Assembly: GCA_965116925.1 (NCBI GenBank)
Contig: OZ220744.1
Location: 5,952,001 to 6,016,000, forward strand
Reading direction: 5' to 3'
Length of the DNA stretch: 64,000 nt
Origin: Candidatus Poribacteria bacterium
GTDB lineage: Bacteria; Poribacteria; WGA-4E; PCPOR2b
Below the pieces are notes generated by a model that saw only the letters and a list, made by a program, of their open reading frames with translations, did no database searches and had not been told where the DNA came from. Position numbers and translations under genes: made by a program. This document shows positions 1 to 15,292 of the stretch, one piece after another; the first letter of the stretch is position 1, and the number at the start of each line of letters is the position of its first letter.

Positions 1-1629
1 TTGTAACCTATTCTCCTTCCTCGCTGGTGTCCTCTACGGTGCTTTCAGTCCCCTTTTCATCGGGGCAAGGATTGTAACGTTTCTGATTAAGCGGGTGGTG
101 TGCCCTGTTTTGCCTTTCAGTCCCCTTTTCATCGGGGCAAGGATTGTAACTGTGTAACTTCTGGTCCGAGCGGTGGCATCTCGATCACTCTTTCAGTCCC
201 CTTTTCATCGGGGCAAGGATTGTAACAGTATTAGATCCTATAACAGGTGCTGTGATAATTGCTTTCAGTCCCCTTTTCATCGGGGCAAGGATTGTAACAG
301 AGTTTAGCGAATAGCGTTATTAACCCCAAAGTGCCTTTCAGTCCCCTTTTCATCGGGGCAAGGATTGTAACCTATAAATACCGCCCGCAACATTATATCT
401 ATCACCACCCTTTCAGTCCCCTTTTCATCGGGGCAAGGATTGTAACATAACTTATTCGCAGATAATCAACGATAGATCAGGCTTTCAGTCCCCTTTTCAT
501 CGGGGCAAGGATTGTAACCAGCGAACAGCAGTAGAAACACATCTAACAGGCGGTCTTTCAGTCCCCTTTTCATCGGGGCAAGGATTGTAACTACGGAAGC
601 AAAGAAGTATATCGGCTTGGATGAAGCTTTCAGTCCCCTTTTCATCGGGGCAAGGATTGTAACTGCTTGGACGTAACTTGGACGGGACGGCGGTGGGATC
701 TTTCAGTCCCCTTTTCATCGGGGCAAGGATTGTAACCTTTTGGACGGCAGATGCGACGCTGCCGTACACAAGCTTTCAGTCCCCTTTTCATCGGGGCAAG
801 GATTGTAACCAGCAGGGCGTGTGTTGTATGAGCCATTCGAGTTCTTTCTTTCAGTCCCCTTTTCATCGGGGCAAGGATTGTAACCACCGTGATTAGTCTG
901 AATCCTCTACCGTATCAAACAGCTTTCAGTCCCCTTTTCATCGGGGCAAGGATTGTAACTATCAATATCATGGTGTTTTCTCCCGTCTTGGTATCCTTTC
1001 AGTCCCCTTTTCATCGGGGCAAGGATTGTAACGTCAAATGTTCCGAACATACGCATAGCAGATATTGATCTTTCAGTCCCCTTTTCATCGGGGCAAGGAT
1101 TGTAACTGAGCCGTCCGTCGGGGGACACTACCTGCCTAAGACTGCTTTCAGTCCCCTTTTCATCGGGGCAAGGATTGTAACCAACAATTCGACTTTAGAG
1201 GTGAACGCTCGGAACAGTCTTTCAGTCCCCTTTTCATCGGGGCAAGGATTGTAACATGGGTAGTGGCACGACGGCTGTGGCTGCTAAGGAATTCTTTCAG
1301 TCCCCTTTTCATCGGGGCAAGGATTGTAACACATGAACAGACAAGCGCAGCAGCAGCCACACTCGCATCTTTCAGTCCCCTTTTCATCGGGGCAAGGATT
1401 GTAACCGCTCCGATGGATACAGGATACGGGCAGAGGTGGACTTTCAGTCCCCTTTTCATCGGGGCAAGGATTGTAACACGGGCGGGCTGTGGATTGGGCT
1501 AAATGACCTGTGGGCATCTTTCAGTCCCCTTTTCATCGGGGCAAGGATTGTAACATAATATGTATTACAAAGGCAAAGCACTAAAACGTAGGCTTTCAGT
1601 CCCCTTTTCATCGGGGCAAGGATTGTAAC
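1..1629 (-). CRISPR. CRISPR array, 37-bp repeat GTTACAATCCTTGCCCCGATGAAAAGGGGACTGAAAG (transcribed orientation), 22 complete repeats plus 1 partial at the window edge, 22 spacers of 34-40 bp
   Basis: Identical + strand copies CTTTCAGTCCCCTTTTCATCGGGGCAAGGATTGTAAC start at 42,114,190,262,335,410,482,555,627,700,773,848,923,996,1070,1145,1219,1294,1369,1441,1518,1593. CCCC/GGGG stem with an 8-nt 3' handle ending GAAAG. AT-rich leader on the right implies minus-strand transcription. Confidence 0.99.
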
Positions 1630-1870
1630 CGACTATGGGCAGCACTCATAAATCGCTCCAAAATATAGAAAATATCTATGTTTTTGAAGCATTCTCTGTA
1701 TCATGGCATGAAACGCCTCTGTGTTCAAGAAAAAAGTGTATATCTTCAGCGTGTCTTGTGTTCATCAGTATCGGTGGGATTCGGATCGTTATTTTCGCAA
1801 ATCCCCGTTGTCAGTGTCATGCTATCTGTTTGGCTATGGAGACCAGAGACAGTCAGTCGCAAATCGATCT
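1630..1870 (-). promoter_or_regulatory. CRISPR leader
   Basis: AT-rich non-coding stretch between the last repeat and cas4, with TCGCAAAT motifs at 1795 and 1857. Boundary approximate. Confidence 0.75.
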
Positions 1871-2030
1871 TCCTACAGATTTGGGTAGGTACAAGACCTA
1901 CCCCTACAGTCTTCGTTTTGATTAAGACGGTGTAAACTCTGCTTTGAGTAGGCACAAAGCCTGACCCTACAGTATCTTCTTTTTCGCAAATTGCCCCGTC
2001 TTTTCCGCAGAAACTTGGTTTGCGAAATTC

Positions 2031-2603
2031 TCATAATACATCGGCACAGAATCGACGAAATTCACACTCGACGCATTTGCCGCGCTGTGGTGTCGGTGGA
2101 GGCATCCACTCCTCTGATAGCATACGCCGTATCTGTTTGATAGCGTCGAGAGTCCTGCGCCTAAGTGTCTCTGAAATCGGAACTGGTGTGATGCGCCCTG
2201 TAGGGATCCGATAGATGAACCCTTGAGACACCGATTGACCGAGACACTCCTCCACCATCAGCGCGTAGGCTGTCAACTGATACTTCGCGTTCAGATTCAA
2301 CCGTTGGGTCGTGTCCTTAAACTCGACTGGAAACGCGCCATCTTCGGTCTCAATAAGCAGGTCGAGCACACCGCTCAGTCCGAGGGACTCGGCGTATAGT
2401 GAGATGTGGAACTGACGGCTACCAGCCTCCAGTCCGTAGCGGGAGAGGGTTCGCCGTCGCTCTAAGACGCTTAGGATTTCGTGTTGGACCGCGCCGATTT
2501 GCATCGGGTGCGTCGTTGGGCGGGTCACGGGGGTGTAGTAGGTGTGGTAGACCACCCGTGGACAGTAGAAGTATTGTTTGATGTCGCTGACCCGTATGTT
2601 CAT
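2031..2603 (-). CDS. cas4: CRISPR-associated exonuclease Cas4
   Basis: N-terminal YCPR, GxxD..ExK RecB motifs, QLxxY and C-terminal CxxCxxxxxC Fe-S ligands. ATGA overlap with cas2. Confidence 0.95.
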   Translation of the reverse strand: MNIRVSDIKQYFYCPRVVYHTYYTPVTRPTTHPMQIGAVQHEILSVLERRRTLSRYGLEAGSRQFHISLYAESLGLSGVLDLLIETEDGAFPVEFKDTTQRLNLNAKYQLTAYALMVEECLGQSVSQGFIYRIPTGRITPVPISETLRRRTLDAIKQIRRMLSEEWMPPPTPQRGKCVECEFRRFCADVL

Positions 2604-2851
2604 TTTCCATTCTCCTCAATGACGGTTCGTTTGTCGTAGTCTTTTGCACACACGCTAAGGATCTCGATCTTCCCTTCCGCTTTGCCGAGTTGTTCGGTCA
2701 GTTTCTCCTCCAATGCGCGCCGCCGGGTTGTGTTGATGTCACCGAGGAATGCGCTGTACTGGATGCGTTTTAAGCCGTAGTCGAGGCAGACATCGGCAAT
2801 CTTTTTGCGGATGCGGTCTTTCACGATGTCGTAGATGACGTAGGTGTGCAT
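2600..2851 (-). CDS. cas2: CRISPR-associated endonuclease Cas2
   Basis: 83 aa with YVIYDI start and RIQYSAF motif. Confidence 0.95.
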   Translation of the reverse strand: MHTYVIYDIVKDRIRKKIADVCLDYGLKRIQYSAFLGDINTTRRRALEEKLTEQLGKAEGKIEILSVCAKDYDKRTVIEENGK

Positions 2852-2858
2852 GAATTAT

Positions 2859-2892
2859 AGAAACCGAGTTTTTTCTTGAAAACTCGGTTTCT
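2859..2892. repeat. REP family A palindrome AGAAACCGAGTTTT-N6-AAAACTCGGTTTCT
   Basis: 14-bp inverted arms. Further copies at 3481-3514, 3646-3679 (degenerate), 8755-8787, 13243 (half), 14681-14714, 16335-16368, 28721-28754, 63086-63119 and 63994-edge. Confidence 0.9.
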
Positions 2893-2899
2893 CTGTCCC

Positions 2900-3466
2900 C
2901 TAATCTAACATCAAGTGCTCTATAAACTCCCTATTGGTCTCAGAATACGCACAGACGAATTTAGTATAAGCTTGGCGCGAAGGAAGTTGAGACAGTACGA
3001 TATCAGGTTTGGATAAAGTTCCGTTACGCAAACCGATGTAGTCCTGATAGCTAGAAAATGTCCAACTTTCTGGATTACTGGCTATCCCCGCCAATACTGG
3101 ATTTAGGTGAATATAGCGTGAAAGATGTAGAAGATATTCGTTTTTGTCTACTAACTTTGCCTTAAAGACACCTTGGAAAACTGGTCCCACGCGGTCTTGT
3201 TGCCGATTCACAGCTTTGGTGTAGGATACGGTGAATGGTTGCATAATTTTCGTGCTCAGGTTGTCATCTTTCAGGTAAGCGAGAATGTGGTAATGATTCG
3301 GCATAAGACAATAGGCGACAATTTCAATTAAATCAGGAAGGCAGTAGTGGCGTAAGCGTTTTATAAAGTATCCCCAGTTTTCCTTATCAAAGAAGATGGG
3401 TTGACGGTTTACGCCGCGGTTGTATAAATGGTAATAATGTCCTGCTCTAAATTGAACGTCTCGCAT
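2900..3466 (-). mobile_element. REP-associated tyrosine transposase (RAYT / Y1_Tnp, IS200-like HUH)
   Basis: YHxxNRG, YCLMPNHYH (HUH), RYIHLNP (catalytic Tyr) and WxxSSY motifs. Flanked on both sides by REP family A palindromes. Confidence 0.92.
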
Positions 3467-3480
3467 CTATGGTGTCTCCC

Positions 3481-3679
3481 AGAAACCGAGTTTTTTCTTC
3501 AAAACTCGGTTTCTATCGGTTTCTAAATGTGTTGTACCTTAAATCGGTAATTTGGTATCTATGGTGCGTCCGAGAAACTGCTCGCCTGCAACCTTCCACA
3601 CACGCTCCCATGAAAATTGGGAGTTTCGTATCTATGACGTGTCCAAGAAACTAAGTTTTGAAGAAAAAACTGAGTTTCT
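3481..3679. repeat. REP family A cluster upstream of RAYT
   Basis: Palindromes at 3481-3514 and 3646-3679. Three ATCTATG-N7-8-AGAAAC-type units near 3466, 3558 and 3630. Confidence 0.8.
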
Positions 3680-3686
3680 AAACTTT

Positions 3687-4796
3687 TTACCATGTGGCGG
3701 TGAAGGGGTGATAGTCTCGTTCGCGGCGTAGGTGCATGGCGAGGTGACGCGCTTGGAGCTGGATGATGTTGCAGAGTTTTTGCGCTTTTCGCTCGAATCG
3801 TTCGGTTTCTTGAAGTCTCGCCAGTACGCGATCGGCAAGGGCGCGTCGGGTCGCTTGGCTGAGGCGGCGTTGTGTTGGGGTTTCGGTCTCCGCATCGGGT
3901 TTCGAGGATTGGTGCACGGCTTTGGCGGCGTCGCTGTCGGGGTCTTCCCACTCGACTTTGAATCGTTTGTTGATCATCGCGAACACGACCCGATCCACGA
4001 CGGGTTGGCGGAACTCTTCGATGAAGTCTAGCACCAGTGAGGGTTTGCCGGGGCGATCGACGTGCAGGAATCCGGCAAACGGTTCTAGCCCTGCCAGTGT
4101 GAGCGCGCTCCAGACTTGTGAGTAGAGTATGCCGTAGCCGTAGTTGAGCAGTGCGTTCACGTCGTCGGTTGCGCCTTGATGGTTGCGAGTGGTGAAGCGT
4201 CCGGCGGGCAGCAGGCGTTGGACGCATTCCCAGTAGAGGGCACCGGCGCGTCCTTCAAGGTTCAGTAGTGTGCTACGTGCATTGTCGATTGGCGGTTCGC
4301 TGACTGCAGCAACGGTTGGGGATTGAACGTCCTGGATTTCGTCAATCAGTCCTTCGATCTTTGTGAGTCGTTCCATCAGTTCGGCGTATTTTTTGGGTGC
4401 CTGTTTTTTGCGGTATTTGCCGAAGTAGCGAACGAGGTTGATCTGGTTCTTCAGCTTGCCAGTAGCAAACTGTTTGGCGATCTCTAGGCCGCGCTCGTCG
4501 TGGTAGGCGGCGAGTTGTTCGCGCCTTGAGATCACGGTCGCTGTCAGGGACGGGCTGTTGAGTTTCGCATACGGTTTGCCGTTGAAGCTGAGGAATGCGA
4601 TTTCGATGCCGCGCTCGGTACAGGCTTCAATGAGATCTGAGGACATGCTGACGCCACGTGAGGTGATGACGATTTGATCGAGGTCCATCAGGGGGTGTTC
4701 CTCTTTTTCGCGGTCTTTGTCTCGGTATCGGACGCTGACGCGCTCGGAGCGTTTGCCGAGGTATGTGCCGTAGTCGGAGATGATGAGTTGTTCCAT
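3687..4796 (-). CDS. cas1: CRISPR-associated endonuclease Cas1
   Basis: EGxAxxxYW, NALLNYGY, GFLH and DFIEEFR motifs. Start set at ATG 4796 (MEQLIIS) behind a GAAAGGA RBS. Confidence 0.96.
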   Translation of the reverse strand: MEQLIISDYGTYLGKRSERVSVRYRDKDREKEEHPLMDLDQIVITSRGVSMSSDLIEACTERGIEIAFLSFNGKPYAKLNSPSLTATVISRREQLAAYHDERGLEIAKQFATGKLKNQINLVRYFGKYRKKQAPKKYAELMERLTKIEGLIDEIQDVQSPTVAAVSEPPIDNARSTLLNLEGRAGALYWECVQRLLPAGRFTTRNHQGATDDVNALLNYGYGILYSQVWSALTLAGLEPFAGFLHVDRPGKPSLVLDFIEEFRQPVVDRVVFAMINKRFKVEWEDPDSDAAKAVHQSSKPDAETETPTQRRLSQATRRALADRVLARLQETERFERKAQKLCNIIQLQARHLAMHLRRERDYHPFTATW

Positions 4797-4863
4797 TTTT
4801 CTGTTTCCTTTCGATCCGCTGCTTGCGTCGGTCTTGAATTTCGGGTACACTTTAATAACCTAA

Positions 4864-5018
4864 TAGGACTTACGCAGTTGATATAAATATCGCCGCTGCC
4901 TTCGTGGCGCGGTGCCTGCTCTTGAAGAAATTGGGGGTTCCCAGTCTGCAATAGTGGGTACAGGTTGCCTAACCTGTACGGGGTGTGCGATGTTTGCCAG
5001 CGAAGTGCGTAACTCCTA
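4864..5018. mobile_element. MITE-like element with ends TAGGACTTACGCA / TGCGTAACTCCTA
   Basis: 13-bp near-perfect terminal inverted repeats with TA at both outer ends. Non-coding. Confidence 0.6.
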
Positions 5019-5263
5019 CCTAAGTTGCTATTCGTTGAAAGTCCACCGTTTTTTATCAGGGCAGAACCTCCCCGACCATCTGGTAGGTCCTTTGTCTTTC
5101 GCTCCAGAGGAGCGATATGTCTATAGAACCACAATAGGGTGGATACCCGCGCTCCAGAGGAGCGCAATGTGTATAGCCAGGGCCAAGCTGCCGATAAATT
5201 GAAGTCCTAAGAACGGATTGGCGAAGTCGGAGCCGAGCGGGTTTTATAACTAGCAACTTGCGT
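5018..5263. mobile_element. MITE-like element with ends ACCTAAGTTGCTA / TAGCAACTTGCGT, carrying GCTCCAGAGGAGC hairpins
   Basis: Inverted ends match those at 39455-39753. Solitary ends near 12180, 35283, 46213 and 50358. Confidence 0.55.
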
Positions 5264-5321
5264 TTTAACAAGGAACGCAGATCTGCGTTCCCTACCCCCG
5301 GTTGTAAGCGATTATGGGAGA

Positions 5322-5621
5322 TTGACTCAGGTGGTTCTTATGTGCCAACGTTGCAATACCTACAAATATCTTGAGCCCCGCCCAAAGAACTGGCGAAACC
5401 AGCTCTGGATTAAGGGCAGAAATATGACGGTTTGGCATCTGATCGCTGCGATGCGTACTGAACATGAGACGCTTGAACAAACCGCTGAAAACTTTGGTTT
5501 GCCGCTGGAGGCTGTCGTCGAAGCGATGCACTACTATGCACTTCACAAGGATATTGTCGAAGCGGATGTTGAAGCGGAGAAGCAGATCCTCGTTGAAGAA
5601 TTCAGAGTTGCCTATTGTTAG
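5322..5621 (+). CDS. DUF433-like (VapB45-type) HTH antitoxin, orphan
   Basis: IKGRNMTVW...AENFGLPLEAVVEAMHYY pattern of DUF433. No PIN toxin follows, and cas3 converges on it. Confidence 0.7.
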   Translation: MTQVVLMCQRCNTYKYLEPRPKNWRNQLWIKGRNMTVWHLIAAMRTEHETLEQTAENFGLPLEAVVEAMHYYALHKDIVEADVEAEKQILVEEFRVAYC

Positions 5622-5664
5622 CGAAAATTAACTCCTTAGCCAGTCCCTTTAACAATGGTGGATA

Positions 5665-8022
5665 TTAATCAAATGTCAATCCCACCTCCGAGTTATATTT
5701 GGCGGTAACGCGATAAGGTTCTCGTCCATTTCTCAGAATTTGGTCACTGTTTTTGAGTGCGTGAAACCTTCCCCAACTGATTGGGACTAACAGTTCTCCG
5801 GCGCGAATTGGTTCTTCCTCGTTCAGAGTTTTGTATTCATTATAGAGAGAAGCCGGTAGGACCTCAAGTCCATCAAACGCCCTGTAAAATGCTTCCTCAA
5901 GTCCCTCGTCTGCTGCAAAAGGACGCATTGGTCGTATGCACATTCTATCAAAGTTTGCGGCGGCGTTTTCGTATTTCTCCCGCCAACGAACTTCAACTTC
6001 GCCACTGTAGATTTCATCCAACCAAGCACCGATACTGCCCTCATCAATTGGCTGTTCATGTTCGCGTTCAAGAATAGAAAGGGTGCGTTGTACCAGTTCG
6101 GGATCATAAATCTTTTGTCCATCGTCAGGTTGACGAAAGACATGAACAGGCGCGAGACCTTTCTGTAGTCTACGACGGTTGATACGACCAAAACGTTGTA
6201 CTAGTGCCTCCAGCGGTGCCGGCTCTGTGTAGATTGTATCCAAATCAATATCAAGACTGACCTCAACCGCCTGTGTTGCAACGAGGACAATAGGTTGACG
6301 TTTCTCGCTCGTTGCTCCCGTTGCATCCCGAATCAGTTTTTCTTTCGCAGAACGGTCACGCATATTGAAACGACCGTGTAAAAGTTCCGTTCGGATATTC
6401 ACCTGATTCAGTTGGTCACTAATTTGGTTATATGCTTCTTGTGTGCGATCAACGAGATTGCACACAACCAACACCGATTTTCCCGCCTCTGCGTCGTTGA
6501 CCACATTTGACAACCCGGAATCAGTCAATAATTCGCCGTCGTGCAGCATCAGTCGATGACGGATAAATTCTTGGAACAACGCTGAATCAGCTTCAATTTT
6601 AGCTGGGGTGTCTAAGGCTTCAGATAACCAACCTTGAATCAGCGTTGGGAAGGTTGCTGACATGATGAAGAAACGGGCGTTGAAATTCACTCTCAGGTAC
6701 TCGATGGTTTTGAGGATCATCGCCAATCGCGTGACTTCGTAGGCGTGAATCTCGTCAAATATAAACGCCGCATTATGATAATCGGTGAGCAACGCCTCGT
6801 AACCTTTGAGGCGATACATCCCTTTAAGCATTTGATACGGACTAAATACACGGACCGGCGGATAATTAAGCCGTGATAGATTCCGCGCCCATGTTGCGGT
6901 ACGAGCTGCTGCTCTTGGATGATAATCTCTTTCTAAGAGAGCCCGATAAAGTGCTAGCAGACCACGGCCATGTTGCAAACCAACGTGTGGGAAGATTTCT
7001 TCTAGGCGACCTTGCATTGCATTCATACTGGCTTGATAGGGGAGTGTATAAAAGAGTCGAGGCAATCCACCGACACTTGATGACTGGCGTGCTGCCCACA
7101 GTAGAGCGGCTTCTGTTTTCCCACTACCGGTTGGTGCTACTAAGAGTGCTGAACCATCAACTGTTTCGGCTAGTGATTGGTGTCCAAAGAGACTTTCCGT
7201 CGATAGGTTACGGCTTGTTAAAATCGTATCTGCGTCAAACTCGGCAACCGGTATCGGTCCAGCGTGAGCGGAGGCACTGTGGTCTGCATTGATGATATAG
7301 CCGCGAACAGTGATTCCTAGCACGATTGCATCAAGTGTGCCTCTCCTCTCTAAATTTCGGTTGAGTGTCCGGTAAACCTTCAGCCAGTGCCGGGTTCGTT
7401 CAACGCCGTATTGTTGGACAGCTTCAATCGCGATATGCTTCTCTTGCAGCTGAGGCGTTGAGATGCCAAAATTTGCTAACCCAAGTTCATCCCGCCACGC
7501 GATACCACATTCTGACAACCAACGCCACAATCCGCCCAAGGTTTTCTCTGAGAGGGAGGCAAGTTGAGGTCTCAAAGGGTCATCGTCCTCCCAATCAGGG
7601 ATAGGGTAAATTCGCTGAATTTCCTCGAAATCTCGATGGTGTGAGACAATGCTGGCAACAAGCCATCGCTGCTCTTCCGTTGACAGATCATCAATCACCC
7701 AATCCACAAACGCAAGCGAAAACACTTCGTGACGGTGCCCCCATCCTCCCCCATTACAACGGAGTTGCATTTGAAAGCCTGCTATTGCCTTGCCAAAATC
7801 GTGAAGGAATGCTGACCAGAAAAGGATGTGCCATAAACGTGGTACGTTGAGTTGCGTTGGAAGATTGGGGCGTAATTGGATGAATTCTGCCAATCGTGAT
7901 AACACATACCATGTGTGCTGGGCTAATGTTTCCGGTTGACCGCCTTCACCCAATTCCGCACTTTTTGCCCACACATTGTTTAACCAATCGGGATATGGGA
8001 CGTTTTCAATTGAAGGTTGCAT
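5665..8022 (-). CDS. cas3: Cas3 HD nuclease-helicase
   Basis: HD motif LHDFGK, Walker A APTGSGKT, DEIH, SAT and QRFGRINR. Start set at ATG 8022 with a GGGAG RBS. Confidence 0.97.
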   Translation of the reverse strand: MQPSIENVPYPDWLNNVWAKSAELGEGGQPETLAQHTWYVLSRLAEFIQLRPNLPTQLNVPRLWHILFWSAFLHDFGKAIAGFQMQLRCNGGGWGHRHEVFSLAFVDWVIDDLSTEEQRWLVASIVSHHRDFEEIQRIYPIPDWEDDDPLRPQLASLSEKTLGGLWRWLSECGIAWRDELGLANFGISTPQLQEKHIAIEAVQQYGVERTRHWLKVYRTLNRNLERRGTLDAIVLGITVRGYIINADHSASAHAGPIPVAEFDADTILTSRNLSTESLFGHQSLAETVDGSALLVAPTGSGKTEAALLWAARQSSSVGGLPRLFYTLPYQASMNAMQGRLEEIFPHVGLQHGRGLLALYRALLERDYHPRAAARTATWARNLSRLNYPPVRVFSPYQMLKGMYRLKGYEALLTDYHNAAFIFDEIHAYEVTRLAMILKTIEYLRVNFNARFFIMSATFPTLIQGWLSEALDTPAKIEADSALFQEFIRHRLMLHDGELLTDSGLSNVVNDAEAGKSVLVVCNLVDRTQEAYNQISDQLNQVNIRTELLHGRFNMRDRSAKEKLIRDATGATSEKRQPIVLVATQAVEVSLDIDLDTIYTEPAPLEALVQRFGRINRRRLQKGLAPVHVFRQPDDGQKIYDPELVQRTLSILEREHEQPIDEGSIGAWLDEIYSGEVEVRWREKYENAAANFDRMCIRPMRPFAADEGLEEAFYRAFDGLEVLPASLYNEYKTLNEEEPIRAGELLVPISWGRFHALKNSDQILRNGREPYRVTAKYNSEVGLTFD

Positions 8023-8731
8023 CGTTATCTCCCACAAAGCTATGGAAAACCAAACCGAGATAGTTGCCTTGATATTCAGGCGTTGAAAGGTCAATCCAAT
8101 ATTTGCCCTTCCCATTTGAAAGGGAAACTCGATCGGTGAGTACCGTGTACTGTGAAAATGTTGGACGTCGGTTTTGACTGTAATCCAAATAGCGAGGCAT
8201 TAGAACCGATACACCGCGCCCAATTCGGGGCCCCATCTCATGCGGCATAATCGTATGTTCAAAGTAGGCAGCCTCGTTCTGCTGCAATTCAATAACGTTG
8301 ACTGCTGTGTAGGTGAACAGGTCCTGCGATCTGCCCAACGAAACCGCATAGCGCGGACTTCGGAATGCTGACTCCCATTCCGGACGGTTGATGTAGAGCG
8401 TGAGACGCGGCTGAAAGATTAACTCCCGTTCAAAGGGATTCACCCTGCCCTCAAGTGCGTTAGGAATTTGAGTGCCCGGCAACTTGCTACGGCTAGAACT
8501 GGATGGCGTCAATACAATGATGTGTTCAATATCCCGAACGTGCCCTTGATGGGTGAAATGGTAAGCGAATTGAACCCCACTTGGATCGAACCATTCCCCC
8601 AACGCACTACAGATATGCCCGTAAATGGTTGCCGGGGGCGGCATCTGAAAGCTGGGGTGAATCTGTTGCATAAAGTGAGGATAGCGGAAAGAAGTGGTAA
8701 GTCCTTCCGCAACGACTTTGAGGACTTTCAT
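8006..8731 (-). CDS. cas5: Type I-B Cas5
   Basis: TSFRYP, PPPATIYG and LGRSQDL motifs. Start ATG 8731 behind GGGAGG. Confidence 0.93.
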   Translation of the reverse strand: MKVLKVVAEGLTTSFRYPHFMQQIHPSFQMPPPATIYGHICSALGEWFDPSGVQFAYHFTHQGHVRDIEHIIVLTPSSSSRSKLPGTQIPNALEGRVNPFERELIFQPRLTLYINRPEWESAFRSPRYAVSLGRSQDLFTYTAVNVIELQQNEAAYFEHTIMPHEMGPRIGRGVSVLMPRYLDYSQNRRPTFSQYTVLTDRVSLSNGKGKYWIDLSTPEYQGNYLGLVFHSFVGDNDATFN

Positions 8732-8796
8732 AGAGACCTCCCAATTTAAGGATGAGAAACCGAGCTTTTCCAAAAAACTCGGTTTCTTCTCCGTTA

Positions 8797-9885
8797 TCAA
8801 TCCAACCAATTCGCATTTTCTGATTTTTGTAAATCTTCAGCGAAAGCCTTAAATGCGTCCCGTGGATGATTTACCCTTATGTTTGCCCCACAACTTGCCA
8901 AACCGGGGGGATCGCTTAATGCCTCCTCAAACTTAGCTCGTTCTTGGTCGAGATAACCTTTAGTCCAACCGACATAAATATCCGAGAGAATATCGTCCTT
9001 GAAAACCGTCAGTGTCTCGGCAAGTGCATCAATCTTCAGCTCCGGTTCATCCCGCTGATTTGGTCCGATGACATGACCGAAAATGTGATTGCCTCCTTTG
9101 GTCACCGCCAAGATTGTCAACGCCGGACTCACATCTGTGTAATGTAGCGATTGTTTCGCGCCACCTTCGAGGTGTGCGAGTCCGTCCAAAAGCGTACTGA
9201 TACGTTGAACGCGTGCTTCGTATGGGAGTCGGTAGGATTTTTCATCTTCGAGGTGTTCAAGATCCTGTGTTTGTGCCAGTCCAATCCGCACGTCATCAAG
9301 GTTTCGGTAGCCTGTTTTATTTCGGTAGGAGAATGTGCCCACGGCATGTAAATCGAGCGATAGAAGCCCTTTGAGGGTTGCACGATAGAATTGGTGTTCA
9401 TGAGGTACAGGGTCACCTTCATGACGTGACATTGTGCCAAAATCCTCGGTAACATTTGTTGGCGCGATGGAAACCAATGTACTCACGCGAAATGGCGATA
9501 CACGAGTAACCGTATCCGTGGTTTCAGTTTCGTTTGCCCGCGATTCATCTGCTTCCCGCTTCTCTTTAGCAGATGTCCTTTTAGACGGCGCACGCATATA
9601 ACCGAAAAGATCGTCGTCCCACCACTCAATTGGATTGGCGTCGGTATAAGCAACTTTTTCCTCTCGGTAGATTGGAGCGGGAGCCCAACCTTGTCCACCA
9701 TTTTCAAGGGTTGTACGCAGCCAATAACGAAATGACTGCGCTGATACATAGGGATAAGCACCCTGCTTCGTGCGAATCATCTTGACTCCCACGGTGTTAT
9801 CGGTGCGAGCACCAGGAATGCTTCCGAGATTATTAAGTGCAGATGCCGGTGCATCAATAAGCATCAAACCTGTTGCAAATGCCAT
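8797..9885 (-). CDS. cas7: Type I-B Cas7 (Cst2/DevR)
   Basis: PYVSAQSFRYWLR, DDLFGYM, RVSPF and GGAKQ motifs. Lies between cas8 and cas5. Confidence 0.95.
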   Translation of the reverse strand: MAFATGLMLIDAPASALNNLGSIPGARTDNTVGVKMIRTKQGAYPYVSAQSFRYWLRTTLENGGQGWAPAPIYREEKVAYTDANPIEWWDDDLFGYMRAPSKRTSAKEKREADESRANETETTDTVTRVSPFRVSTLVSIAPTNVTEDFGTMSRHEGDPVPHEHQFYRATLKGLLSLDLHAVGTFSYRNKTGYRNLDDVRIGLAQTQDLEHLEDEKSYRLPYEARVQRISTLLDGLAHLEGGAKQSLHYTDVSPALTILAVTKGGNHIFGHVIGPNQRDEPELKIDALAETLTVFKDDILSDIYVGWTKGYLDQERAKFEEALSDPPGLASCGANIRVNHPRDAFKAFAEDLQKSENANWLD

Positions 9886-9918
9886 GATATAAACCTCCTT
9901 GCAATTTGTGATAATTCG

Positions 9919-11415
9919 TTAGCTGTTTTCATCCTCGTTCTCTTGAGCGGTTTCTTCAACCAGATCAGGATTTTCGCCCAACCAGCCTTTCTCATGTAAC
10001 TGTTCAACCATCCGGATGAACACCAAGTCACGCGCCAGCCACCAGTCTGGACGTTCTAATCCGTACCCCTCTTCAAAAACTTCAATATATGGGTCAAGTT
10101 TGATAATCGGTGGATTACCACGGTTGACATGCTCCAGATTGGCACGGATTAGTAATCTACGTACGTCACTGGACCTACGTTGATGAAAAAAATCACGGAA
10201 GAAACGACGATCATTCTGACTACTGACATAATTCGCCAGTTGGTCGCCCATCTTGCGAATCTCCTCAATTCGTTCCTTTTCCATGTGAAATACCCTCCTT
10301 AAAAAAGATGCGATGATATTCCATGACACCAAATTCATCTCGTGTGTTAGTCCGTAGTTTCCCCGTGGGTCACCTTGGTTGACGCGACCGTAGCGGGACC
10401 GGCGACGCAAAAAGTAGGTCCGTAAAAATGCCTTTGCTCTGTCCGGCAAAAGAAACAAACCATCGTACAATCCTAAGACATCTTCATAAAGCCAATTTCG
10501 ACGCGGTTGGAATGGCTTATTATCTTTTTTTCGTTTATTTTGGGGTTCAGTCTCCCATGCACGATTGACGATTCCATTCCATTGTGTACGGTAATCTGCG
10601 CTCTGCATTTCACGCAGAAATCCAATAATTTGAAGCGGTAAGTGATAGATGTCCAAACCGACGCCCTGCCCGCTGTTTGTCAGGTGATATGCTGTGAGTG
10701 AGAAAGGCTCCTCATCTTGAAGCTCCTCCCGCTGTCTAATATCACCTTGAAGGAGTGTGTTAATTAGCAGTGTGCCGCGAGAGTTATGTGGTTCCTCTAT
10801 TTTCTTGCTGCCTGCTGCTTGGGCGAGAGCAATTGCTCTCTGATTTCCTTCTAGAAACGATCGGGCAAAATATAGCATAAGGTCTGGATTATCTGAATGC
10901 ACCGCAAGCAGGCGTCCTGCGGACTTTGCACATCCAAGTGGAAATGCCTGAATAGCGAGCAGTGCTTCACCTGAAACGGGTAAGCCTGCCTCACCATAGG
11001 CGTGGAAGTTGATAACATTTTCACCGGTGAGCAGTGGGATGTGTTGGCGAAAAGCGCGTCCCTGTGGCAGGGTCTCTTTTTCTCCAAATGCGATATTAAC
11101 GGCTGGCTTGCCTGTGAAAACACACACCTCATCATCAAGCAGGGGGGTATCATCGCTATAATTCCGCAGTACACGGGTTGCATACGCTGAACGCTTTTCG
11201 GGCGTTTTATTGTATGCTGGTTGCGTAAAGCCTGAATTTGGAAAAGCGACTGTCAAAAACGACTTGAGTGGGTCTCGGACGTATTCACGAGTGATATAGT
11301 CCGCAACTTCGTCAAGGTCAGTTTCTGTCAATTCATCAGGGTTTCGCTTGTCCACAAAAGCGGTAATTGTTGCAATTCCCACATCAACAAGTGGGTGTCC
11401 TGTGTATTTGAGCAT
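9919..11415 (-). CDS. cas8b1: Type I-B large subunit Cas8b1/Cst1
   Basis: YTGHPLVDVG start, FPNS, C-x-F-T-G, RQHIPLLTG..INF and C-terminal W.LARDL. First gene of the Cascade operon. Confidence 0.9.
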   Translation of the reverse strand: MLKYTGHPLVDVGIATITAFVDKRNPDELTETDLDEVADYITREYVRDPLKSFLTVAFPNSGFTQPAYNKTPEKRSAYATRVLRNYSDDTPLLDDEVCVFTGKPAVNIAFGEKETLPQGRAFRQHIPLLTGENVINFHAYGEAGLPVSGEALLAIQAFPLGCAKSAGRLLAVHSDNPDLMLYFARSFLEGNQRAIALAQAAGSKKIEEPHNSRGTLLINTLLQGDIRQREELQDEEPFSLTAYHLTNSGQGVGLDIYHLPLQIIGFLREMQSADYRTQWNGIVNRAWETEPQNKRKKDNKPFQPRRNWLYEDVLGLYDGLFLLPDRAKAFLRTYFLRRRSRYGRVNQGDPRGNYGLTHEMNLVSWNIIASFLRRVFHMEKERIEEIRKMGDQLANYVSSQNDRRFFRDFFHQRRSSDVRRLLIRANLEHVNRGNPPIIKLDPYIEVFEEGYGLERPDWWLARDLVFIRMVEQLHEKGWLGENPDLVEETAQENEDENS

Positions 11416-11447
11416 TCTACTTTAGTCTCCTTTCTTTTAAAACGGTA

Positions 11448-11480
11448 ATTATATCCCCGATTCCCGTCAGAACATGTCGG
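11448..11480 (-). promoter_or_regulatory. cas8 promoter: TATAAT -10 with an upstream inverted repeat CCGACA-N5-TGACGG (candidate WYL operator)
   Basis: Minus strand reads CCGACATGTTCTGACGG-GAATCGGGGA-TATAAT. No recognisable -35. Confidence 0.6.
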
Positions 11481-11566
11481 TGATCGGAAAATAGTGTAAT
11501 TTTTTAAGGATCTACCACATTTTTTTTTTCCTTCTCTTATCCATTCGATACTTCCCCAGGTCAAAT

Positions 11567-11602
11567 GTTATCAGCCTAAACACTGTAGGCAACGATTTTC
11601 TT
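11567..11602 (-). repeat. Degenerate solitary CRISPR-repeat-like unit upstream of cas8
   Basis: AAGAA AATCGTTG CCTA CAGTGTT TAGG CTGATAAC versus array GTTAC AATCCTTG CCCC GATGAAAA GGGG ACTGAAAG. Confidence 0.55.
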
Positions 11603-11703
11603 ACATTGCAAAACGGCACCAATTCTAATAAAATAGATACGTGACGATATGGGACACTATATTTTATAGCTGCCTATCCAATATCAGAGGAGTGTACCGT
11701 CCT

Positions 11704-11949
11704 ATGAAAGTGATCGAGTATATCGCAGAAGTATTACCCAACGGTTCTCTCGCACTGCCTGACGACATCCGAAAAGCGTTGGGATCGCAAACGCAAGTCA
11801 AAGTGACGTTAGCAGTGGAAACACCTTCGACCCCTGACCTCCAGAAGGGTTGGCAAATTTTCAAAGATCTTGGAAAAGATGCGGTTGCTGGGAAGCTGTC
11901 CAACACTTCGATAAATCATGACGAATACCTCTACGGTACACGGAAATGA
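11704..11949 (+). CDS. Small antitoxin-like protein (AbrB-like N-terminus, HDxYLY C-terminus), orphan
   Basis: GAGGAG RBS. NGSLALPDDIR hairpin motif. The C-terminal S.NHDEYLY resembles antitoxins found upstream of PIN toxins. The overlapping ATG (11946) ORF stops after 6 codons. Confidence 0.6.
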   Translation: MKVIEYIAEVLPNGSLALPDDIRKALGSQTQVKVTLAVETPSTPDLQKGWQIFKDLGKDAVAGKLSNTSINHDEYLYGTRK

Positions 11950-12236
11950 GCACCTCCTCTTTATAGGTCGGGTTTTCATACTCGATACCTATCAGAAATA
12001 ACCCAATAAACGACACACATGTCGCCCCTCTGGGGCTTTAGGATATGGAATTTCGGAATTGCTATACACATATCGCCCCGCTGGGGCTTTGGAGGCGGAG
12101 CAAGTTGAAAATCCCGATCGTATCGGGGATACCCGACCTACGCATATCGGGAGTTGACTTTTATCACGCTGCACGTAACTAGCAGCTTACGTTAAAATAG
12201 CGATCACAAGGGTTGTCCTTACCTTATCTCTAGGCT

Positions 12237-13175
12237 TTATTCAATCCGATATTTCCCCAACCCAAACGTTGCGTTTTTGCCGACGTGCAGAAACCTGCCC
12301 AACGCCGCGAATGGCATGAACGCCGCCAAATCGCCGTTATAGGTTACACACCCAACCAGTCCTCCGAGCTGCATCTTCTGATTCTGTCGTGAGGAGTAGC
12401 GTGTCCAGTCCTTCCATCGCAGGCTGCTCTGGACGGTTTGGATCGTTTCCGCCTGTGCGATGAGTCCCTTGAAATCGAGATCCAACGATTCGCCACAGTG
12501 GAAATATGCCAACGCCGAGATTCGCCCGATCAGTCGTCGCCAGAAGAGGTGGAACGGGAGTTGATCCGTTATTTGCCCCTTATGTGTGATCCGCGTGGGG
12601 GTGAGCAGGTGCACGGTCAACTGGTCGGTCGGTAGTGATGCTGCTTCGCCCTGAATCTCGTCGAAGCTGAGTGTGTTATTAAGGTTCTGTATCATCTGGG
12701 TTTCGCCATCGTAGACTGATTCGCCGTCCTCGGTCTGGACGTGGGTCAGTTGGAACCGTCCGCGTCCCTTGCCGATGCCGATCTCGCCTAGTTCGCGGAA
12801 GCTAACCAGAAAATAGGGGAGGTAGTCGATGGCGCGTCCGATCAGGGTCAGACGGAACACAAACGATTCTCCTCGCCGGTATTCGCCTCGTGTACTTAGG
12901 GGGTCGATCACGAAGGGTCTAGGCACGTCCCCATACGTCCTTAATTGTTGCGCGCCCTCGAATGGGGCGGTCTCGAAGATGTAGGGGTATGGGCACACGG
13001 CTTTGAGTGTGCAATCTCGGCAGTCAATTGGTCCTTGGGTACAGACCATCTTTCGGAAGGCGTGTCCGAATCCGCCGCGGAGTGTGGAACCGGCGTAGGG
13101 TGGCATCACAATTTTTGAGAGCGCGGTTAGGATTATATGGTAGCGTGCGATTCGGAAGTTCTGTAGTGGGTTCAT
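12237..13175 (-). CDS. cas6: CRISPR pre-crRNA processing endoribonuclease Cas6 (DUF2276-type RAMP)
   Basis: GSTLRGGFG, Cys cluster C..C..C...CPY, PRPFV and the C-terminal G-loop HVGKNATFGLG. Confidence 0.95.
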   Translation of the reverse strand: MNPLQNFRIARYHIILTALSKIVMPPYAGSTLRGGFGHAFRKMVCTQGPIDCRDCTLKAVCPYPYIFETAPFEGAQQLRTYGDVPRPFVIDPLSTRGEYRRGESFVFRLTLIGRAIDYLPYFLVSFRELGEIGIGKGRGRFQLTHVQTEDGESVYDGETQMIQNLNNTLSFDEIQGEAASLPTDQLTVHLLTPTRITHKGQITDQLPFHLFWRRLIGRISALAYFHCGESLDLDFKGLIAQAETIQTVQSSLRWKDWTRYSSRQNQKMQLGGLVGCVTYNGDLAAFMPFAALGRFLHVGKNATFGLGKYRIE

Positions 13176-13191
13176 TGGTGTTTCCTTTTCT

Positions 13192-13215
13192 CATATAGCC
13201 CGCTTTTCATCGCGG
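13192..13215 (-). repeat. CRISPR-repeat hairpin mimic in the cas6 5' UTR
   Basis: Minus strand CCGC GATGAAAA GCGG GCTATATG: same 8-nt loop as the array repeat and a compensatory stem pair. Confidence 0.7.
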
Positions 13216-13264
13216 TATGTAAGGGATGATGAGGAAAGCCTCAGAAACCGAGTTTTTCGGAAAT

Positions 13265-13287
13265 GGGCGGGGAAACCCCGCCCCTAC
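13265..13287. repeat. GTAG-type REP family B (GGGCGRGG-N3-YYCGCCCCTAC)
   Basis: Copies at 35583-35605, 39295-39317 and 46176-46198. Related GTAG hairpins near 1885, 1948, 5270, 20170, 35413, 39368 and 39568. Confidence 0.8.
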
Positions 13288-13295
13288 GGTTTCTG

Positions 13296-13320
13296 GGTAT
13301 AATCGGGAGTCATTATACCA
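13296..13320 (-). promoter_or_regulatory. cas6 extended -10 promoter (TGGTATAAT) inside a perfect GGTATAAT-N8-ATTATACC palindrome
   Basis: Read directly from the sequence, between the WYL stop and cas6. Confidence 0.55.
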
Positions 13321-13345
13321 TCCGAGAGTGCAATATATACGCACT

Positions 13346-14317
13346 TTACTTTTTATTGTAAATTTGCTGCATTTTTTTAATTTCCGCCTTGATCTCATGG
13401 CGGAGGCTTTCGGGTTCAACGACTTCTGCATGTGATCCGTAGCCCATCACCCACCGCTTCACTTCGCCCAACCCACCGACTCTCAGACGGAGTATCAGTT
13501 CACCGGAAGGCAGCTCCTCGATCTGTTGGCTGGGGTGCCATTCGCGTTCCCTGATCCAGCGTGCCTGATATTCGTCAAATTTGATGACGATATTTTCGGG
13601 TTCTGTCGCCCGTTCAGCGAGAAACCCAGCCTCTAAGTAGGCATTGAGTGAAAAATCCGGGGGGACTTGGAAAGAGGATAGTAGGTGTTTATACGCTTTG
13701 ATGCGGCTGGTGAGAAAGTCCCGGGGTTCGCGTCGGGTATGACAATAGGCGATTAAATACCAATCACCCTGAATGTTATGGAGATGGTATGGATCAACAA
13801 TGCGTGTGCTTGTTTGACCGCTACTCGCTGAATAGTACTCTATTTCAATTGAGTATCTTGAAAGGATAGCCTCGTTGAGTTCAAGCAGTAATTCTGGATC
13901 AACTATCGCTCTGCCGCCGCCTGTGAAGGTAAACGCAGCGGTTTTCCTTTGTGCATCGTAGCTTACACTCTCTGGCAGATGTTGTTTTATCTTATCGAGT
14001 GCGAGTCGAAGCGGCGTTTCAAAAGGAGTGCCCAGATACCGTCTAAATAATTCTTCTCCCAGAAAAAAAGCGGTAATTTCTTCGCTTGTCAGCATTATTG
14101 CAGGAAGGAAATAGGTGGGATCCGTGTAGTACCAACCGTTTCTGGTTCTGTCATATTTGATAGGCGCGCCAAAGCGGTTTATCAGAAATTTCCTATCTTC
14201 GTAGGCGATTCGGGTGCTGCGGAGTTCAAAGTGTGCCTGGACTGTATGGGCGTTTGGATACCTTTCTCTTTGAATCTGATCATCAATCCAGTAAATTCTT
14301 TCCAGCTTGGTAGACAT
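13346..14317 (-). CDS. HTH-WYL-WCX transcriptional regulator associated with the cas locus
   Basis: N-terminal winged HTH, WYL motif GDWYLIAYCH..R..RDF...RI and C-terminal WCX (WVMGYGSHAEVVEPESLR). Confidence 0.93.
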   Translation of the reverse strand: MSTKLERIYWIDDQIQRERYPNAHTVQAHFELRSTRIAYEDRKFLINRFGAPIKYDRTRNGWYYTDPTYFLPAIMLTSEEITAFFLGEELFRRYLGTPFETPLRLALDKIKQHLPESVSYDAQRKTAAFTFTGGGRAIVDPELLLELNEAILSRYSIEIEYYSASSGQTSTRIVDPYHLHNIQGDWYLIAYCHTRREPRDFLTSRIKAYKHLLSSFQVPPDFSLNAYLEAGFLAERATEPENIVIKFDEYQARWIREREWHPSQQIEELPSGELILRLRVGGLGEVKRWVMGYGSHAEVVEPESLRHEIKAEIKKMQQIYNKK

Positions 14318-14508
14318 TTGGTGTGATTTCCTTTCGCCTTAGTAGGGATTTACTCATGATATACACATGGTGCCCCACTGGGGCTAAAAAACTTGGGATG
14401 TCCTTGGTGCTATACACATATCACACCTCTGGGGCTATGTTGTTTCATTGGTGTTGGGTTTTACTGTCGTTCAACCCAACCTACGAGAATTACTGTTATA
14501 TACAAAAA

Positions 14509-14538
14509 GGTTACGGCATACGGAGTATGCCTACTACT
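14509..14538. repeat. REP family C GGTTACGGCATACGGAGTATGCCTACTACT
   Basis: Near-identical copies at 39419-39448 and 50329-50358. Internal hairpin GGCATAC/GTATGCC. Confidence 0.85.
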
Positions 14539-14779
14539 TTGTAAGATCGGGATTCCATGTCTTAAAAGATACAGGATAGACCAACCATAGTGCAAATTTA
14601 AAAATGGCAGTTTGAAACTAATAGTTTGACTCTGCAAAAAATAACTTGGTTCATATAAAAAGAAGGTGTAAAGCGTGAAGAGAAACCGAGTTTTTTCTTC
14701 AAAACTCGGTTTCTGTGTTGGAGATTGTTTGAAACGGTTCGGTGGGAGGCGAAATTACTGAGAGAGGTAAGGGTGGGTA

Positions 14780-15292
14780 TTAAGCGTTGCTCCAATCATA
14801 TTCGTGAACGACCTGCTCTCCCGTACCAATTTCGTTGAGTTCGAGAAGGTTGCCATCCGGATCATAAAAGAAAAGCACATGCCATTCACCTTCACCGGCG
14901 AAACGGACGGGTGGCGAGACAAATTCTACGCCCGCCGCCTTCAACCGTTCATAGGTGGCTGGGACATCTTCGACGGCAAAGCAGATATGTGCACTCGGTA
15001 CGTGGTTGATGGGGTAGCGTTGGGCAGGGCTGGTGGGATTGAGCCATTGGATAAGATCCAGTGTGAAGCCCGGTCCTTCATTTCGGGTGTGGCCATGGAT
15101 CCCATCGGGTGCACGGAGCCGGTATTCGCGCATGTGTACCTTGGGGATTGCAACCATTTCGGAGATTGGACCGTCGTTGTGTTCTTCAGGGGAGACAACT
15201 TCTAGCCCCAGTAAGTCGCGATAGAAGTGGAGTGACTTCTCCAGATCGCTGACCATGACTGCAACGTGGTCGATTTTAATCGTAGCATTCAT
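14780..15292 (-). CDS. VOC/glyoxalase family protein (methylmalonyl-CoA epimerase-like fold)
   Basis: IDHVAVMVSDLE, AHICFAV and FYDPDGNLLEL motifs. Confidence 0.85.
   Translation of the reverse strand: MNATIKIDHVAVMVSDLEKSLHFYRDLLGLEVVSPEEHNDGPISEMVAIPKVHMREYRLRAPDGIHGHTRNEGPGFTLDLIQWLNPTSPAQRYPINHVPSAHICFAVEDVPATYERLKAAGVEFVSPPVRFAGEGEWHVLFFYDPDGNLLELNEIGTGEQVVHEYDWSNA

What the first reader, a model, noticed from the sequence alone, without database searches (positions are those of the whole stretch)
4808..14317. Candidate regulatory system: Cas6-readable repeat mimics in cas leaders plus WYL-type promoter control
Each of the three cas transcription units carries a sense-oriented CRISPR-repeat-like hairpin in its 5' leader: cas6 (strong), cas8-7-5-3 (moderate) and cas1-2-4 (weak). 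Known crRNA-like regulators (CreA/CreR) use pseudo-repeat plus pseudo-spacer guides against promoters. Here I found no promoter target by eye, and the cas6 mimic lies just upstream of the RBS. This suggests a different logic: free Cas6 binds or cleaves cas mRNA leaders, while pre-crRNA from the long array titrates it, giving an RNA-level feedback matched to array output. A WYL sensor with a DriD/PafBC-like site would add nucleic-acid-triggered induction. The mechanism is entirely inference.
Basis: inference. Interest (0 to 1): 0.85.

Follow-up and report, generated by a model that had tools for sequence, protein, structure and literature searches.

The report
Leftover CRISPR repeat in cas6 leader
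One CRISPR-repeat hairpin, left over from a known kind of small regulatory array, is kept intact just in front of the gene for the enzyme that cuts such repeats, so the enzyme may control its own message; the two other claimed hairpins are not repeat copies.

Summary
One of the three claimed mimics is real. The cas6 leader hairpin (13215-13200, minus strand) is the best non-array hit of a repeat covariance model in the window; the cas8 and cas1 leaders give no hit, here or in 22 related loci. The cas8 'hairpin' is a DriD-type DNA palindrome upstream of the -10 box. Relatives show that the cas6 mimic is the second repeat of a CreA/CreR-type mini-array: 8 two-repeat versions were found, 6 with PAM-flanked targets. 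In this genome and 8 relatives the first repeat and most of the spacer are gone, yet the hairpin stays 22-24 nt before cas6 and changes about 7 times more slowly than synonymous sites. It does not track the local array repeat. Best reading: Cas6 binds or cuts its own leader; the sign of the effect is untested, and no RNA data exist. The WYL part holds up better: two WYL types each travel with their own palindrome, both in a 4-N7-4-N11-TATAAT layout, but the cas8 site's WYL type is missing from this genome. The scan's index showed no earlier report of this element on other DNA, only two loosely similar phage notes.

The parts
13346..14317 (-). WYL+WCX regulator gene ('WYL-A'), the only WYL domain found in the genome
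   Evidence: Pfam WYL and WCX; PafBC/DriD-type solved relatives; 1 PF13280 match in G000
13329..13343 (-). Site A, palindrome TGCG-N7-TGCA directly after the WYL stop; candidate WYL-A operator
   Evidence: Present after 13 of 13 WYL-A genes in L001-L021, and in L056 and L127; single copy in G000
13312..13317 (-). TATAAT (-10 box) 11 nt after site A; predicted cas6 promoter, start near 13305 (inferred)
13239..13294 (-). REP-like dispersed hairpin inserted in the cas6 leader, where relatives have the first repeat and spacer
   Evidence: folds as a long hairpin; core motif occurs 366 times in the genome
13200..13215 (-). Repeat mimic: lone second repeat (psiR2) of a truncated mini-array; 4-bp stem, 8-nt loop; degenerate 5' half of the repeat extends to about 13230; predicted Cas6 cut between 13200 and 13199
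   Evidence: cut position inferred from the 8-nt-handle rule (PMC8501985 passages)
13183..13190 (-). Purine-rich Shine-Dalgarno of cas6, downstream of the predicted cut
   Evidence: sequence
12237..13175 (-). cas6, the only copy found in the genome with this query
   Evidence: PF10040; 1 match in G000
11566..12236 (.). Insertion between cas6 and cas8: dispersed repeats and a 102-aa ORF on + (11641-11949)
   Evidence: no family hit for the ORF
11537..11565 (-). Degenerate duplicate of the cas6 3' end, a scar of the insertion
   Evidence: sequence comparison with cas8 upstream regions
11465..11479 (-).
   Evidence: follows 7 of 7 WYL-B genes; fits the CGXC-N7-GXCG pattern (PMC10853764 passages)
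11448..11453 (-). TATAAT (-10 box) 11 nt after site B; predicted cas8 promoter
5665..11415 (-). cas8b1/Cst1, cas7/Cst2, cas5b, cas3 (type I-B)
   Evidence: NCBIfam TIGR01908, TIGR02585, TIGR01895, TIGR01587
4833..4855 (-). Conserved box upstream of cas1; single copy in the genome, not repeat-like, role unknown
   Evidence: aligns in the window and 6 of 14 relatives
2031..4796 (-). cas1, REP-associated tyrosine transposase, cas2, cas4
42..1629 (-). CRISPR array, 37-nt repeat; 22 copies in the window, 60 model hits in the whole array

Best explanation
The cas6 leader hairpin is the second repeat of a CreA/CreR-type mini-array (repeat, spacer, degenerate repeat) that once sat directly before cas6. 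Several separate truncations removed the first repeat and the guide but left this hairpin, and selection has kept it (shown by comparison, odds about 0.9 for origin). The WYL-activated promoter transcribes it as part of the cas6 leader (inferred). Free Cas6 recognises the stem-loop and cuts at its 3' base, 24 nt before the start codon (inferred, about 0.7). The most likely consequence is negative feedback on cas6 alone: the cut removes the protective 5' end and upstream hairpin and leaves a 5'-hydroxyl end open to RNase J, or bound Cas6 hinders the ribosome; pre-crRNA from the 60-repeat array would compete for Cas6 and relieve this (inferred, untested). Transcription of cas6 is probably switched on by WYL-A at site A in response to single-stranded nucleic acid, as for DriD and PafBC (inferred from family and geometry). 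cas8 and cas1 have no such RNA element.
For: Same hairpin is the second repeat in 8 mini-arrays; spacer remnants remain in L001 and L008. All 11 members of the window's cas6 clade keep it. In the 9 loci without a first repeat the 19-nt core has 6 parsimony changes (0.32 per site) against 2.13 per site at 97 four-fold sites of cas6, Poisson P 2e-11. Among 5 loci sharing one truncation junction, 1 of 15 core columns varies against 19 of 26 adjacent upstream columns, Fisher P 5e-5. Conservation covers the stem-loop and about 2 nt past the predicted cut, not the handle. The CGC/GCG form is the true array repeat in relatives with a 77-86% identical Cas6, and the window's copy equals the L081 array repeat over 20 nt. 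The three inner pairs hold in 17 of 17 copies, one with a two-sided change. G000 has RNase J above cut-off, and B. subtilis RNase J degrades 5'-hydroxyl RNA exonucleolytically (PMC4652760 passage).
Against: No expression or cleavage evidence. 9 of 21 close loci lack the intact hairpin in the cas6 leader, and distant cas6 genes are mostly operon-internal, so it is dispensable and clade-restricted. The cut would leave the Shine-Dalgarno intact, and engineered Csy4 cuts upstream of a bacterial RBS equalise rather than repress output (PMC8601185 passage). The outer pair is broken in 14 of 17 copies, leaving a 3-bp stem. The window's own copy carries 3 of the 6 changes, including the first base after the predicted cut. 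The motif boundaries were drawn after seeing the conservation, loci are related, and leaders recombine against cas6 (the window's cas6 is sister to L001 but its leader resembles L002/L018), so the P values overstate.
Confidence: 0.4

Rival explanations
1. Natural insulator or maturation site: Cas6 cuts the hairpin, but the point is to free cas6 mRNA from a variable upstream leader (REP hairpins, swapped promoters, upstream genes), giving steady or higher translation and no negative feedback.
For: Upstream context differs widely among loci while the hairpin-to-start distance stays 20-24 nt; the Shine-Dalgarno survives the cut; engineered Csy4 sites work this way in bacteria (PMC8601185 passage).
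Against: Predicted ribosome-site accessibility does not rise consistently after the cut: easier in 4 or 5 of 11 loci, unchanged or harder in the rest. RNase J is present.
Confidence: 0.25
2. Relic: the hairpin was conserved while the mini-array was whole, the first repeat was lost recently, and the remnant has no job now.
For: L004's mini-array already looks decayed, with no PAM-flanked target; the window's copy has drifted at three edge positions; 9 of 21 loci lack it.
Against: Five loci share one truncation junction whose adjacent 26 nt differ at up to 14 positions while the 15-nt core differs at 0-1, so the loss is old relative to neutral change; at least four different junctions all spare the hairpin.
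Confidence: 0.15
3. Decoy RNA: the useful product is the upstream piece (promoter start to hairpin, about 105 nt), a solitary-repeat RNA that holds Cas6 or seeds an incomplete Cascade and so buffers the system.
For: The piece would end in a repeat hairpin that Cas6 can hold after cleavage (stated for 3' handles in PMC8501985 passage); solitary repeat units are reported in cas loci (10.1101/2023.03.03.530964 section 22).
Against: No 5' handle; upstream sequence changes at neutral rate; length varies among loci.
Confidence: 0.1
4. DNA-level site: the conserved 15-19 bp is bound by a protein on the chromosome, for example a repeat-binding factor or the sigma-like protein encoded beside some mini-arrays.
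For: Short, strongly conserved, close to a gene start; sigma-70-like genes precede the mini-array in L011, L016 and L152.
Against: Orientation is always sense; base pairing is kept, with a two-sided change; the sequence equals real array repeats; no sigma-like ORF lies between WYL and cas6 in the window.
Confidence: 0.1

Closest known systems
CreA/CreR crRNA-like mini-arrays (PMC8501985; 10.1101/2023.03.10.532045; 10.1101/2023.03.03.530964)
   Same: Relatives carry a near-perfect first repeat, a spacer and a degenerate second repeat, with a seed match (every sixth base free) beside a consistent PAM near a promoter or gene start; such mini-arrays are reported upstream of cas6 in type I-B. The window's hairpin is homologous to the second repeat.
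   Different: The window has only the second repeat: no first repeat, no handle, no spacer, no target. The papers describe loss of the second repeat and solitary units nearly identical to the array repeat, not a retained lone second repeat in an mRNA leader (passages seen only).
DriD and PafBC, WYL-domain activators (PMC10853764; PMC11804915)
   Same: WYL+WCX protein of about 325 aa; site B fits DriD's CGXC-N7-GXCG; both sites have an AT-rich or mixed 7-nt centre and sit at a fixed distance before a -10 box, as PafBC's -26 motif does.
   Different: Site A has other half-sites (TGCR-N7-TGCA); each site occurs once in the genome and serves cas genes, not a DNA-repair regulon; the operator follows the WYL gene; no binding or ligand was tested.
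Engineered Cas6/Csy4 sites in mRNA (PMC8601185; PMC9095627)
   Same: A Cas6-family site placed upstream of an RBS or in the nuclease's own transcript.
   Different: Those are synthetic; in bacteria the upstream cut insulated rather than repressed. Here the arrangement is natural and conserved.
CRISPR-repressed protein toxin-antitoxin (10.1101/2024.01.05.574328, abstract start only)
   Same: In L011, L012, L014, L016 and L152 the mini-array spacer targets the start region of a neighbouring protein gene.
   Different: Targets are sigma-70-like or unknown ORFs, toxicity untested; none of this module remains in the window.

Membership tests
CreA/CreR mini-array (window copy) | First repeat giving an 8-nt 5' handle, upstream of a spacer | tested here: not met
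   No model hit upstream of the hairpin in the window or near it genome-wide; a REP-like hairpin occupies the place
CreA/CreR mini-array (window copy) | Spacer with a PAM-flanked seed match at a promoter | tested here: not met
   Upstream sequence is not conserved; relatives' spacers reach at most 8 of 10 seed bases at CC-PAM sites in the window's cas region
CreA/CreR mini-array (window copy) | Degenerate second repeat keeping the stem-loop | tested here: met
CreA/CreR mini-array (relatives) | Two repeats around a spacer, plus seed match with a consistent PAM | tested here: met
   6 of 8: L011, L012, L014, L015, L016 top-ranked of about 41,800 sites each, PAM CCT or CCC, 24-783 nt upstream; L152. 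L004 none; L080 none in the 3 kb held
CreA/CreR mini-array | Cas6 processing and effector-dependent repression | not testable with these tools
   needs RNA or reporter data
DriD-type WYL activator | WYL and WCX domains behind an N-terminal DNA-binding domain | tested here: inconclusive
   WYL and WCX met; an HTH is only weakly seen for WYL-B (E 0.027) and not by Pfam for WYL-A
DriD-type WYL activator | Palindrome CGXC-N7-GXCG | tested here: met
   Met by site B at the cas8 promoter; site A has the same spacing with other half-sites
DriD-type WYL activator | Cognate regulator present for the cas8 site | tested here: not met
   WYL-B not found in G000 (99% complete):
DriD-type WYL activator | ssDNA-dependent DNA binding and activation | not testable with these tools
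   needs biochemistry
   tracking fails

The most novel reading that the evidence does not exclude
A regulatory mini-array was co-opted: after losing its guide, its second repeat became a cis-acting Cas6 site in the cas6 leader, giving natural, guide-free, RNA-level negative autoregulation of Cas6 that is relieved by pre-crRNA, placed under a WYL-activated promoter whose regulator-operator pair is swapped as a cassette.
Probability: 0.3. Interest if true: 0.75.

Novelty: new variant of a known kind. Interest (0 to 1): 0.55.

Why it matters
Known CRISPR self-control by RNA works through a guide that sends the effector to a promoter. A conserved lone repeat in the cas6 leader would be a guide-free route in which the processing enzyme senses its own surplus, and the relatives show how it arose step by step from a mini-array. 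It gives a cheap, sharp test (one enzyme, one 24-nt leader) and a search rule for other phyla: lone second repeats 20-25 nt before cas6. The two WYL-operator pairs also give testable sites for activation of cas genes by WYL sensors.

Tried and rejected
Repeat mimics in cas8 and cas1 leaders: rejected. Mimic tracking the local repeat: rejected. My idea that the pyrimidine-rich 5' half hides the Shine-Dalgarno and that the cut frees it: not supported; opening energies were not above shuffled controls in any of 11 loci. A hidden guide upstream of the lone hairpin: rejected, sequence not conserved. A genome-wide WYL regulon: each site occurs once in G000. A generic promoter scan found 13 sites against 15.3 by chance and missed both WYL promoters, which lack a -35 box. 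RNA runs: no RNA holder listed, so no reads were laid. Distant cas6 relatives: in 20 fetched regions and 7 short loci, read by eye, cas6 was mostly operon-internal and no leader copy was seen; this was not scored against each locus's repeat. The metagenome scan gave 25 loci, only 1 close (L127: site A, no mimic); the other 24 were not examined. Rfam: no family at threshold in 1600-14800. RNase Y not found in G000. L022 was left out of leader counts (contig ends inside cas6); L019 was left out of the codon tree (frameshift).

Full report
Locus. The minus strand carries WYL, cas6, cas8b1, cas7, cas5, cas3, cas1, a REP-associated transposase, cas2, cas4 and the array: a type I-B (Cst1) system. 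The closest cas6 relatives (77-92% identical) are in records titled Candidatus Poribacteria. The genome has one such cas6, one WYL domain and one array of 60 model hits.

Observation. The cas6 leader holds a hairpin at 13215-13200 with the repeat's 8-nt loop and a 4-bp stem, differing from the repeat by one compensated pair. A covariance model built only from 12 array repeats ranks it first outside the array in the window, E 0.0035. The model includes repeats with the same swapped pair, which favours the hit; against the window's own repeat alone the match is 14 of 16, equalled by 15 non-array sites in the genome. The cas8 and cas1 upstream regions give chance-level matches and no model hit at E<=10, in the window or in L001-L022.

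What the cas8 'hairpin' is. It is CGAC-N7-GACG followed 11 nt later by TATAAT, 32 nt before the cas8 start. The same element follows all 7 genes of a second WYL type (27-29% identical to the window's) and there precedes cas6 or other genes. It fits the DriD pattern CGXC-N7-GXCG (PMC10853764, passages). A strict pattern finds it in 12 of 159 genomes, with 1 control hit. So it is a promoter palindrome upstream of the -10 box, not a leader RNA. Its WYL type is not found in G000, G031, G056 or the fragmented G043, which still have the site; whether it is silent, constitutive or read by WYL-A is open.

The cas6 promoter. Directly after the WYL-A stop lies TGCG-N7-TGCA, again 11 nt before TATAAT. 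It follows 13 of 13 WYL-A genes in L001-L021 and two more distant ones. The identical geometry of two different palindromes, each tied to one WYL type, supports WYL-activated promoters of the DriD/PafBC kind (PMC11804915, passages on the -26 motif and ssDNA activation). Tight linkage alone could explain the co-occurrence, though not the shared spacing. Searches for a WYL activator of cas operons returned listings that I did not read further, so I make no novelty claim on this point.

Origin of the cas6 mimic. The hairpin occurs upstream of cas6 in 12 of 21 close loci: 20-24 nt from the start codon in 11, and 96 nt in L015. In L004, L011 and L016 a near-perfect repeat lies 65-74 nt upstream. 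The same two-repeat unit occurs away from cas6 in L012, L014, L015, L080 and L114/L152, before effector genes such as cas10d. In 6 of these 8 the spacer has a seed match on the opposite strand beside CCT or CCC, 24-783 nt upstream, at a promoter or gene start; L004 has none, and L080 none in the 3 kb held. This is the CreA/CreR plan (PMC8501985, passages; 10.1101/2023.03.10.532045, passages; 10.1101/2023.03.03.530964, passages and section 22, which reports repeat-like sequences near 27% of I-B cas6 genes). L001 and L008 keep pieces of the spacer. The window's hairpin is therefore a lone second repeat.

It does not track the array. The window, L002, L003 and L005 have CCCC/GGGG arrays but the CGC/GCG mimic; L014 has the reverse. 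The CGC/GCG form is itself the array repeat in other relatives, so this Cas6 family probably reads both forms (inference).

Selection on the lone repeat. All 11 members of the window's cas6 clade keep it. In the 9 without a first repeat, the 19-nt core shows 0.32 changes per site against 2.13 at four-fold sites, 2.7 in the 12 nt upstream and 1.5 in the 8 nt downstream (the upstream figure mixes non-homologous junctions). In the 5 loci that share one junction, 1 of 15 core columns varies against 19 of 26 upstream. Conservation stops about 2 nt past the expected cut, as suits a site to be cut that donates no handle. Caveats: boundaries chosen after inspection, related genomes, recombining leaders, a 3-bp stem in 14 of 17 copies, and three edge changes in the window's own copy, one of which restores the fourth pair.

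Mechanism. Shown: homology, position, conservation, pairing. Inferred: transcription from the site A promoter near 13305; Cas6 recognition; a cut at 13200/13199 leaving 24 nt with the Shine-Dalgarno. The sign is open. RNase J and RNase E/G are present, and RNase J of B. subtilis attacks 5'-hydroxyl ends (PMC4652760, passage), which favours decay and negative feedback. Engineered Csy4 cuts before an RBS insulate instead (PMC8601185, passage). Folding gave no consistent change in ribosome-site access. That Cas6 leaves a 5'-hydroxyl end is stated for mature CreA. Titration by the array is by analogy with CreR sensing crRNA volume.

Novelty. The parent element is known. Four full-text searches for natural Cas6 action on its own mRNA showed no such paper among the listings; the one 'own transcript' hit is a synthetic mammalian circuit (PMC9095627, passages). 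PMC9458426 (passages) covers repeat degeneration in CreTA. The library lacks most subscription papers, and bioRxiv supplements were closed. The scan's index had no look-alike in other genomes, two loosely similar phage notes and a note on this same locus; none was used as support.

Verdict. The three-leader circuit is not supported. A narrower finding is real: a selected, lone second repeat in the cas6 leader of one Poribacteria clade, under a probable WYL-activated promoter. New variant of a known kind; interest 0.55.

Noticed in passing
G000:C1:355889-355927 (+), L085/L153: Solitary repeat of the CGC/GCG form with a near-intact handle, far from the cas locus; best non-array model hit (25 bits). 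It overlaps a possible ORF start; no clear PAM-flanked target found. Similar solitary repeats with intact handles occur in L070, L078, L082, L088 and L090.
   Followed up: partly
G000:C1 about 945960-945700 (-): Three or four decayed repeat-like units about 75 nt apart: probably a dead orphan array.
   Followed up: no
L011 9267-9899, L016 9250-9885, L152 2058-2627: A sigma-70-like gene inside the cas locus whose start region is the PAM-flanked target of the adjacent mini-array spacer: a candidate CRISPR-repressed sigma factor.
   Followed up: partly
L012 13303-13749, L014 12508-12954: 148-aa ORF of no clear family whose upstream region is the mini-array's target; candidate CRISPR-repressed toxin or regulator.
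   Followed up: partly
L001-L021: The same cas6, WYL cassette and cas1-2-4 flank different effector modules (I-B Cst1 in 5 of these 21 loci plus L022; cas10d-like or other cas3 types elsewhere), so the effector block is swapped between relatives.
   Followed up: partly
window 4855-4833 (-): Single-copy box upstream of cas1, conserved in 6 of 14 relatives at varying distance; possibly a promoter or binding site.
   Followed up: partly
window 2900-3466 (-): REP-associated tyrosine transposase between cas1 and cas2, flanked by its REP hairpins; also at or near this place in several relatives.
   Followed up: no
G000:C1:5949557-5949739: A spacer occurs twice near the array's distal end, among repeats with a one-base variant.
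   Followed up: no
L118 (G044): A second site B promoter leads, after a REP remnant, into a repeat-like sequence with an intact handle: a WYL-type promoter may drive an array or mini-array directly.
   Followed up: no
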